Shown here one piece after another: positions 5,584 to 9,257 of a stretch of 64,000 nucleotides of DNA. The notes under the pieces are model-generated. The model had not been told where the DNA came from. It was given only the letters and a program-made list of their open reading frames with translations, and did not search any database. The DNA is from the human T2T-CHM13v2.0 reference genome, Homo sapiens: the NCBI RefSeq assembly GCF_009914755.1, contig NC_060935.1, one strand, 5' to 3'. Within the stretch, counting starts at the first letter, position 1. Every line of letters starts with the position of its first letter. The position numbers and the translations under genes are program-made.

Positions 5584-5594
5584 GCTCCTCCTTC

Positions 5595-9257
<3,663 letters not shown>

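What the first reader, a model, noticed from the sequence alone, without database searches (positions are those of the whole stretch)
5592..5609. Junction carries TPRT hallmarks: array seeded by an L1 inserted into another L1
Seen: on the L1 sense strand ORF2 runs ...GGATT^AAGAAAATGTGGC, then GAA, then the very first bases of L1 (GGAGGAGCCAAGATGG). The opposite strand reads 5'-TTTTCTT/AA-3' 13 bp from the breakpoint. Known: L1 endonuclease nicks TTTT/AA and variants such as TCTT/AA; TSDs are about 7-20 bp and begin at the A-tract; full-length insertions often carry an extra 5' G and a few upstream bases. Inference: a full-length L1 inserted co-directionally into the ORF2 3' end of a resident L1. 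That created two homologous direct repeats 5.63 kb apart, and unequal recombination between them yields exactly this monomer, without the 3'UTR and poly(A). This gives a specific route from nested retrotransposition to satellite birth.
Basis: partly seen in the sequence, partly recalled or inferred. Interest (0 to 1): 0.85.

Follow-up and report, generated by a model that had tools for sequence, protein, structure and literature searches.

The report
Human L1 array born from nested L1s
A 100-kb tandem array of LINE-1 copies on human chromosome 11 began when one full-length LINE-1 jumped into an older LINE-1 lying in the same direction; recombination between the two look-alike copies then multiplied the stretch between them.

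Summary
The junction ORF2...TT/AAGAAAATGTGGC-GAA-GGAGGAGCC sits on the minus strand at window 5592-5609. It recurs exactly 17 times, only on chr11 94.155-94.246 Mb, with a 5633-bp period.

I fetched both array ends. At the low end the last unit runs on through the ORF2 end, 3'UTR and a 13-A run. Then comes a second copy of the 13-bp target (12 of 13 identical) and the rest of an older L1 with its own tail. The high end is the 5'-truncated front of that older L1.

The 16 internal units are hybrids. The first ~5050 nt are the inserted L1. The last ~580 nt are host-type (30 differences from the last unit; all 32 host/insert-distinguishing columns there match the host front piece). Genome searches show the two types differ in age. 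That is the product expected from unequal homologous exchange.

The array itself is already described in a 2026 preprint (PMC13192797). Its main text gives no origin. The double-insertion route to satellites is known from Drosophila (PMC5932611). So this is a clean human member of a known kind.

The parts
5595..5607 (-). Left copy of the 13-bp target-site duplication AAGAAAATGTGGC at the junction named in the finding. This is junction 12 of 17, counted along the L1 sense strand.
   Evidence: sequence. Searches show the right copy, AAGAAAATaTGGC, after the poly(A) of the last unit. That copy lies outside the window at chr11 94,149,412-94,149,424, which is window place -28588..-28576.
5601..5609 (+). 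L1 endonuclease-type nick site 5'-TTTTCTT/AA-3' on the strand opposite the L1. The nick falls between 5607 and 5608.
   Evidence: The chance of such a site 7-20 nt from a random breakpoint is 1.4%.
5592..5594 (-). GAA between the target copy and GGAGGAGCC. It is either a 3-nt filler or the inserted element's own variant of the usual three terminal purines.
   Evidence: GAA plus the same 31 nt occurs at 19 other sites. The 13 examined have unrelated flanks and are 89-96% identical to this element.
5592..11224 (-). One complete 5633-bp unit (U11). It holds the inserted L1 from its 5' end to about nt 5050, then host-type ORF2 sequence, the target copy and GAA.
6175..11224 (-). Inserted-L1 part of unit U11: 5'UTR, ORF1 and most of ORF2. 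Over alignment columns 1-5054 the common internal unit type (U05) differs from the terminal complete element U17 at 2 columns.
   Evidence: The best matches outside the array are 98% for columns 3615-5054.
5595..6174 (-). Host-type part of unit U11 (alignment columns 5055 to the junction). It equals the host front piece and differs from the terminal inserted element at 30 columns.
   Evidence: Best matches outside the array are 96%, against 99-98% for the same segment of the terminal element.
9321..10337 (-). ORF1 of unit U11, 338 codons, open.
   Evidence: ORF1 is open in 16 of 17 units; U13 has a stop at codon 49.
1..64000 (-). Body of the array: the end of U01, complete units U02-U11 and the front of U12. 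The 16-nt junctions (target copy + GAA) lie at 5592-5607, 11225-11240, 16858-16873, 22491-22506, 28124-28139, 33757-33772, 39390-39405, 45023-45038, 50655-50670, 56288-56303 and 61921-61936.

Parts that belong to the feature but lie OUTSIDE the window, given as window places:
(a) U17, the complete inserted L1 with ORF2 end, 3'UTR and poly(A): -28575..-22574 (chr11 94,149,425-94,155,426).
(b) Right target copy AAGAAAATaTGGC: -28588..-28576.
(c) Host L1 3' remnant with its own 3'UTR and short A tail: -28959..-28576.
(d) Host L1 front piece, 5'-truncated at column 2883: 67557..70304 (chr11 up to 94,248,304).
(e) Units U12-U16 between the window start and U17, and the rest of U01 above 64000.
   Evidence: for the body. 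for the parts outside the window.

Best explanation
A full-length L1 of about 6.0 kb (called I here) inserted by target-primed reverse transcription into the ORF2 3' region of an older, 5'-truncated L1 (called H) lying in the same orientation.

Insertion step. The nick was at 5'-TTTTCTT/AA-3' on the opposite strand. It left a 13-bp target-site duplication and a short poly(A).

Substrate. The insertion placed two homologous ORF2 stretches in direct orientation, exactly 5633 bp apart.

First duplication. An out-of-register homologous exchange between them, with its switch point within roughly 60 bp upstream of alignment column 5055, duplicated the interval. The resulting unit is I(1..~5050) + H(~5051..target) + GAA. 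This is why the unit lacks the ORF2 end, 3'UTR and poly(A).

Later events. Further unequal exchanges, some apparently in a two-unit register, expanded and homogenised the array to 16 units plus the complete terminal element in CHM13. One such event overwrote most of the host front piece with monomer sequence.

Shown by the data: the nested insertion with all its hallmarks, the hybrid make-up of the units, and their near-identity.

Inferred: that the exchanges were crossovers between sister chromatids or homologues rather than another homology-driven process, and the order of the later events.
For: 1. The junction is exact and unique to this locus, 17 of 17 copies.

2. The low end carries poly(A), a second target copy (12 of 13) and an in-register continuation of a second L1 that is 88.3% identical to I's 3' end.

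3. The high end is a 5'-truncated L1 abutting non-L1 sequence.

4. The mosaic:
- Columns 2883-3614: the host front differs from unit U05 at 55 columns, and at each of them U05 and U17 agree.
- Columns 3615-5054: 3 differences only.
- Column 5055 to the end: host front and U05 agree and differ from U17 at 32 columns, 30 of them before the junction. Two other columns are private to the host front.

5. Age contrast. In each search the best 40 candidates were scored, so counts are lower bounds.
- U17 segment 5055-5630: 99-97% to outside copies.
- The same segment of the monomer: 96%.
- Monomer 3615-5054: 98%.
- Host front 2883-3614: 95-93%.
- I's 3' 600 nt: 98%.

6. U01-U16 differ by 0-7 nt, mean 2.0 per 5633 over 120 pairs.

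7. One in-frame stop and two frameshifts in ORF2 give the same open-frame pattern in 15 of 16 internal units. U04 has one further 1-nt deletion. U17 shares them. So the element had decayed before it was amplified.

8. Passages I read in the preprint PMC13192797 report 0-15 units across 94 HPRC haplotypes with conserved flanking L1s labelled L1PA2 and L1P1. That fits stepwise gain and loss.
Against: - The host's own target-site duplication was not found. The flanks share only a low-complexity 8-mer.
- The two target copies differ at one base.
- GAA is unexplained.
- The true host sequence in columns 3615-5054 is lost. The first switch point is therefore bounded only by the absence of differences from U17, not seen directly.
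- Sequence alone cannot separate unequal crossover from other homology-driven routes.
- No other assembly or species could be examined here. The ancestral un-amplified state is inferred from preprint passages, not seen.
- Each genome identity comparison scored only 40 of 721-5072 candidates.
Confidence: 0.85

Rival explanations
1. The nested pair is the same, but amplification went another way. Intrachromatid recombination between the two ORF2 homologies popped out a 5633-bp circle, which has exactly the monomer structure. Rolling-circle or break-induced replication then made a concatemer that re-entered by homologous recombination.
For: The circle would have exactly the hybrid unit seen. The 16 units are nearly identical, as a burst would give. 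Rolling circle is one of three routes listed in Fig. 1 of PMC5932611 (legend seen).
Against: Variants are arranged in alternating two-unit patterns: column 976 in U11/U13/U15, and columns 1847 and 2532 in U02/U04. The host front piece was overwritten separately. Copy number ranges 0-15 between haplotypes with differing unit orders (preprint passages). All three point to repeated stepwise exchange rather than one burst.
Confidence: 0.1
2. A single retrotransposition event with template switching. Reverse transcriptase reached the 5' end of one L1 RNA, added a few bases (GAA) and jumped to an internal ORF2 position of a second L1 RNA. This gave a head-to-internal dimer that later expanded.
For: It would explain a junction exactly at an L1 5' end with three extra bases.
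Against: It predicts no duplicated 13-bp target and no L1 3' remnant after the poly(A). Both are present. It also predicts contemporaneous templates. Instead the flanking pieces are much older-looking than the inserted element: 93-96% against 98-99% to outside copies.
Confidence: 0.02
3. Simple tandem duplication of part of one L1 by end joining or microhomology, with GAA coming from the unique 5' flank.
For: None beyond the fact that the array is tandem.
Against: There are two different L1s at the ends, plus a poly(A) and second target copy. The unique flank at the high end abuts ORF2 column 2883, not an L1 5' end.
Confidence: 0.01

Closest known systems
The chr11 'tandem duplicated LINE-1' array described in the preprint PMC13192797 (bioRxiv, May 2026; hs1 chr11:94,140,954-94,254,695)
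   Same: It is the same locus. The preprint reports 16 back-to-back units in hs1, units lacking an intact ORF2 but keeping the 5'UTR and ORF1, conserved older L1s on both sides, and 0-15 units in HPRC haplotypes. I read section 10, discussion passages, methods passages and the Fig. 3 legend.
   Different: The main text gives no origin. The terms unequal, target site duplication, NAHR and crossover each have 0 occurrences, and the one 'nested' is unrelated. It labels the units L1HS. Here the units differ from the terminal element, which by position I take to be the flank it labels L1PA2, at only 2 of the first 5054 columns, and they end in host-type sequence. I saw neither its figures nor its supplements.
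Double-insertion model of satellite birth (McGurk and Barbash 2018, PMC5932611), including the Drosophila R1 array and the ~16-copy hobo array
   Same: Two insertions of one element family create direct repeats. Unequal exchange then expands them, and target-derived sequence sits between units. I read the abstract, introduction passages and the non-LTR section.
   Different: In that work dimers arise mainly from repeated insertion at a preferred site, giving head-to-tail or tail-to-internal junctions. Nested insertions are mentioned only as an alternative reading. Here the seed is a true nested insertion into the body of an older subfamily member. The unit is an internal-to-head hybrid of two elements and lacks the 3' end.
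Tandem LTR-retrotransposon arrays made by unequal exchange between LTRs (Fig. 1A of PMC5932611, legend seen)
   Same: Direct repeats flanking a unit recombine out of register, and the unit shares one repeat copy.
   Different: L1 has no terminal repeats. The 'repeats' here were supplied by the host and inserted copies of ORF2.
L1 recombination-associated deletions in human (Han et al. 2008). I saw this only as an entry in the reference list of PMC5848613; its content is recalled.
   Same: Homologous exchange between two nearby L1s in direct orientation.
   Different: Those are the deletion products. This locus shows the reciprocal duplication product and its further expansion.

Membership tests
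Target-primed reverse transcription (endonuclease-dependent) L1 insertion | Nick site resembling 5'-TTTT/AA-3' on the strand opposite the element, at the start of the duplicated target | tested here: met
   The + strand reads TTTTCTT/AA at window 5601-5609. The chance figure is 1.4%. The consensus itself is recalled knowledge.
Target-primed reverse transcription (endonuclease-dependent) L1 insertion | Target-site duplication of about 7-20 bp flanking the element on both sides | tested here: met
   A 13-bp copy lies at every junction, and a second copy (12 of 13) lies directly after the A run of the terminal unit.
Target-primed reverse transcription (endonuclease-dependent) L1 insertion | Poly(A) tail at the 3' end of the inserted element | tested here: met
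   A run of 13 A's follows ...AAGTATAAT. The last two are shared with the target copy.
Target-primed reverse transcription (endonuclease-dependent) L1 insertion | Interrupted target is continuous once the insert and one target copy are removed | tested here: met
   The host front ends ...AAGAAAATGTGGC. The host remnant starts AAGAAAATaTGGC-ACATATACACC, which is the same continuation that the inserted element's own ORF2 shows.
Satellite born from a double or nested TE insertion (PMC5932611) | Two copies of one TE family in direct orientation at one site, with insertion hallmarks at the junction | tested here: met
Satellite born from a double or nested TE insertion (PMC5932611) | Expansion by out-of-register homologous exchange: the unit equals the offset between the two homologies, and the unit is a hybrid of the two copies | tested here: met
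   The period of 5633 equals the offset. The unit is inserted-type up to about column 5054 and host-type after it, with 32 of 32 host/insert-distinguishing columns matching the host front. This shows that homology was used, not the cellular pathway.
Satellite born from a double or nested TE insertion (PMC5932611) | Copy-number polymorphism, and an un-amplified ancestral state in the population or in sister species | not testable with these tools
   Only one human assembly is held. The preprint passages report 0-15 units with both flanking L1s kept. I could not inspect those haplotypes or any ape genome.
L1HS (human-specific L1), the label given to the units in PMC13192797 | 3'UTR diagnostic positions of L1HS, and each copy being an independent young insertion | tested here: not met
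   The units have no 3'UTR at all. They are local copies, not insertions. The complete terminal element's ORF2 and 3' end are 97-99% identical to their best outside matches, and its 5'UTR only 95%. Which bases are diagnostic is recalled and was not tested.

The most novel reading that the evidence does not exclude
The locus keeps every step of a macrosatellite's birth in one haplotype, and the birth may have happened more than once. The preprint reports two unit groups that never mix within a haplotype. These could be two independent first exchanges between the same nested pair, recognisable by different insert-to-host switch points. If so, any same-orientation nested L1 pair would be a recurrent, predictable seed of multi-kb copy-number variation in humans. 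The locus would also add up to 16 promoter-plus-ORF1 copies per haplotype that are miscounted as young L1HS insertions.
Probability: 0.15. Interest if true: 0.7.

Novelty: new member of a known kind. Interest (0 to 1): 0.5.

Why it matters
It gives a fully documented human case of how a dispersed retrotransposon becomes a tandem array. The steps are nested insertion, a first homologous exchange that fixes the unit, then expansion and homogenisation. All junctions and both parental sequences are still readable.

It explains why the unit lacks the L1 3' end.

It shows that the 16 'L1HS' copies at this locus are local hybrids of an older insert and its host. They are not young insertions, which matters for counts of full-length young L1s in complete genomes and pangenomes.

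It predicts specific alleles: the un-amplified nested pair, and a reciprocal single chimeric L1 without the junction. These can be looked for in existing assemblies.

The array varies by tens of kb between people. It lies inside a predicted lncRNA between PANX1 and IZUMO1R (hub annotation). Its units keep a 5'UTR and an open ORF1.

Tried and rejected
- Tandem Repeats Finder found nothing, because its longest period is 500.
- I looked for the host L1's own target-site duplication. The flanks share only a low-complexity 8-mer, so this is unresolved.
- I looked for a source element carrying GAA before the L1 5' end. There are 19 other sites. The 13 fetched have unrelated flanks and are only 89-96% identical over the first 1.5 kb, so none is the source. 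The other 6 were not examined.
- Literature. Hoyt et al. preprint main text has no mention of chr11 or an L1 array. PMC5848613 concerns L1-dense regions, not tandem arrays.
- Searches found no paper giving a nested-insertion origin for this array. Supplements of the 2026 preprint and its figures were not seen and might bear on this.
- Subfamily naming by diagnostic bases was not attempted, because no L1 reference library is available here. Relative age was judged from best genome matches instead.
- Rejected readings: simple tandem duplication, and template switching during reverse transcription. Both are contradicted by the low-coordinate end.

Full report
**Observation**

The L1 lies on the minus strand. 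At window 5609..5592 the minus strand reads TT-AAGAAAATGTGGC-GAA, followed from 5591 by GGAGGAGCCAAGATGGCCGAATAGG.

The 32-nt junction string occurs 11 times in the window, at steps of 5633 (one of 5632). It occurs 17 times in the whole assembly, all on chr11 94,155,411-94,245,569, with none in the reversed-pattern control.

The endonuclease-like site is not trivial. The unit holds only 6 TTAA[AG]A sites. A random breakpoint would have one 7-20 nt upstream in 1.4% of positions, or 2-5% with looser motifs.

**Array ends**

The window lies wholly inside the array, so I fetched both ends from the same assembly.

Low-coordinate end. The last unit (U17) does not stop at ...AAGAAAATGTGGC. It continues with ACATATACACC..., the rest of ORF2, a 3'UTR and a run of 13 A's. 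Directly after that comes AAGAAAATaTGGC-ACATATACACC..., a second L1 3' end with its own 3'UTR and short A tail, and then non-L1 DNA.

The second target copy matches the first at 12 of 13 positions. The second 3' end is only 88.3% identical to that of U17 (45 mismatches in 384, no gaps). It is therefore a different element, not a copy.

High-coordinate end. After the last junction there is only a partial unit. It runs from alignment column 2883 to the junction and abuts non-L1 sequence.

So a complete L1 of about 6.0 kb (I) sits inside an older L1 (H) that is 5'-truncated and lies in the same orientation. The insertion has a nick site, a 13-bp duplication and a poly(A). The outcome that would have refuted the reading was not found.

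Places outside the window, given as window places:

| Feature | Window place |
|---|---|
| U17 (complete inserted L1) | -28575..-22574 |
| Right target copy | -28588..-28576 |
| Host 3' remnant | -28959..-28576 |
| Host front piece | 67557..70304 |

**Unit structure**

I aligned the host front piece (H5) and the 17 units.

- U01-U16 are almost identical: 0-7 differences, mean 2.0 per 5633 nt over 120 pairs.
- U17 differs from the common unit type at only 2 of the first 5054 columns, but at 30 columns between 5055 and the junction. At all of those, H5 agrees with the internal units.
- H5 differs from the common internal unit (U05), and at the same columns from U17, at 55 columns between 2883 and 3614. 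It is virtually identical to them between 3615 and 5054 (3 differences).

Whole-genome searches give the polarity. In each search only the best 40 of 721-5072 candidates were scored.

| Segment | Best identity to copies outside the array |
|---|---|
| U17, columns 5055-5630 | 99-97% |
| Internal units, same segment | 96% |
| Units, columns 3615-5054 | 98% |
| H5, columns 2883-3614 | 95-93% |
| I, 3' 600 nt | 98% |

Each internal unit is therefore I(1..~5050) + H(~5051..target) + GAA.

That is the product expected if the ORF2 of I paired out of register with the ORF2 of H5 and exchanged. Given about 5% divergence and no difference from U17 upstream, the switch lies within roughly 60 bp before column 5055.

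H5's present make-up (host, then insert-type, then host-type with the same switch at 5055) is most simply a later exchange or conversion with a unit. Its left boundary is just after column 3614.

Columns 4116 and 4176 are where H5 and U17 agree against all 16 internal units. This fits that event having preceded the last homogenisation of the array.

**Timing**

ORF2 carries one in-frame stop and two frameshifts. They give the same open-frame pattern in 15 of 16 internal units (U04 has one more 1-nt deletion) and are shared by U17. The insert had therefore decayed before it was multiplied.

Its CpG-rich 5'UTR is only 95% identical to its best relatives, with a length difference of about 9 nt. 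ORF2 and the 3' end are about 98% identical.

ORF1 (338 codons) is open in 16 of 17 units. U13 has a stop at codon 49.

The internal units differ by about 3.6 per 10,000 sites. With a recalled human rate of about 0.5e-9 per site per year, that is a coalescence of a few hundred thousand years. It is a rough figure and depends on ongoing homogenisation.

**GAA**

GAA is not target sequence, because the host continues with ACATATAC.

Among 871 genomic matches to three purines + GGAGGAGCC..., my hand tally of the first 100 listed gives GGG 42, GGA 19, GAG 17, AGG 13, AGA 4, GAA 2, AAG 2 and AAA 1. These three positions are therefore normally part of the element.

GAA + the same 31 nt occurs 36 times, 17 of them in this array. 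Of the 19 others, the 13 fetched have unrelated upstream sequence and are 89-96% identical to I over 1.5 kb. None is a source element. Whether GAA is filler or a variant terminus stays open.

**Rivals**

- Simple tandem duplication is contradicted by the low end.
- Template switching during reverse transcription is also contradicted by the low end, and by the age contrast between flanks and insert.
- A pop-out circle followed by rolling-circle or break-induced replication would give the same hybrid unit. It cannot be excluded from sequence alone.

Against the circle route there are three observations:

- Variants alternate in a two-unit pattern: column 976 in U11/U13/U15, and columns 1847 and 2532 in U02/U04.
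- H5 was overwritten separately.
- The preprint reports a spread of copy numbers.

These favour repeated stepwise exchange.

**Comparison with what is known**

The array itself is in print. Preprint PMC13192797 (May 2026) describes 'tandem duplicated LINE-1s' at hs1 chr11:94,140,954-94,254,695. It reports 16 L1HS-labelled units, 0-15 units in 94 HPRC haplotypes, conserved flanking L1s labelled L1PA2 and L1P1, and two unit groups that do not mix within a haplotype. I read section 10, discussion and methods passages and the Fig. 3 legend.

Its main text gives no origin. The terms unequal, target site duplication, NAHR and crossover each have 0 occurrences. I did not see its figures or supplements.

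The general route, double insertion followed by unequal exchange, was set out for Drosophila by McGurk and Barbash (PMC5932611). I read the abstract, introduction passages and the non-LTR section. Their examples are the R1 array, with target duplications between units, and a ~16-copy hobo array.

Further searches found no paper giving this origin for a human L1 array.

**Verdict**

- The unit is a hybrid of the insert and the host.
- The host front piece was overwritten.
- The second target copy has one mismatch.
- GAA remains ambiguous.

This is a new, unusually complete human member of a known kind of event, at a locus already described. Interest is moderate.

Noticed in passing
window 1-64000 and beyond; alignment columns 976, 1847, 2532: Variants alternate between neighbouring units. 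Column 976 is T in U11, U13 and U15 but C in U12, U14 and U16. Columns 1847 and 2532 are A,A in U02 and U04 but G,G in U01 and U03. This suggests that some duplications copied two units (11.3 kb) at a time, an incipient higher-order repeat.
   Followed up: partly
window 45023-50654 (unit U04); 1-nt deletion near window 47641: U04 is 5632 nt long because of a 1-nt deletion at alignment column 3014. The deletion coincides with the break in NCBI's repeat mask at 47635-47639. It gives U04 one more ORF2 frameshift than the other units.
   Followed up: yes
unit U15 (outside the window, chr11 ~94,161,0xx-94,166,6xx), alignment column 5609: At this one column U15 carries the inserted-type base (T, as in U17) inside otherwise host-type sequence. 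It also has a private change at column 5468. This could be a recurrent mutation or a very short conversion patch.
   Followed up: no
L024 (chr1 58.84 Mb), L026 (chr2 186.08 Mb), L030 (chr5 91.31 Mb), bases just upstream of position 1500: For 3 of the 13 other L1 5' ends preceded by GAA, L1 ORF2 or 3'UTR-like sequence lies directly upstream. These are further L1-next-to-L1 or L1-in-L1 junctions. In L024 the upstream 23 nt equal the ORF2 stretch with which the host front piece of this array begins.
   Followed up: no
units U01-U16 versus U17 and preprint PMC13192797: RepeatMasker-based labels in the preprint call the units L1HS and a flanking element L1PA2. If that flank is U17, as its position suggests, the two labels apply to sequences that differ at 2 of 5054 columns. 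The L1HS label then probably reflects the missing 3' end, and these units inflate counts of full-length young L1s.
   Followed up: partly
L018 6827-7426 (5'UTR of U17) and the same part of every unit: The first 600 nt of the inserted element are only 95% identical to their best relatives elsewhere, and those matches span about 609 nt. ORF2 and the 3' end are about 98% identical. The promoter region has decayed faster, as expected for a methylated CpG-rich region.
   Followed up: no
alignment columns 5055-5087 (window about 6142-6174 in unit U11): Eight of the 30 insert/host differences fall within 33 columns right at the switch point. This is a much denser patch than in the rest of the segment. 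The reason is unknown.
   Followed up: no
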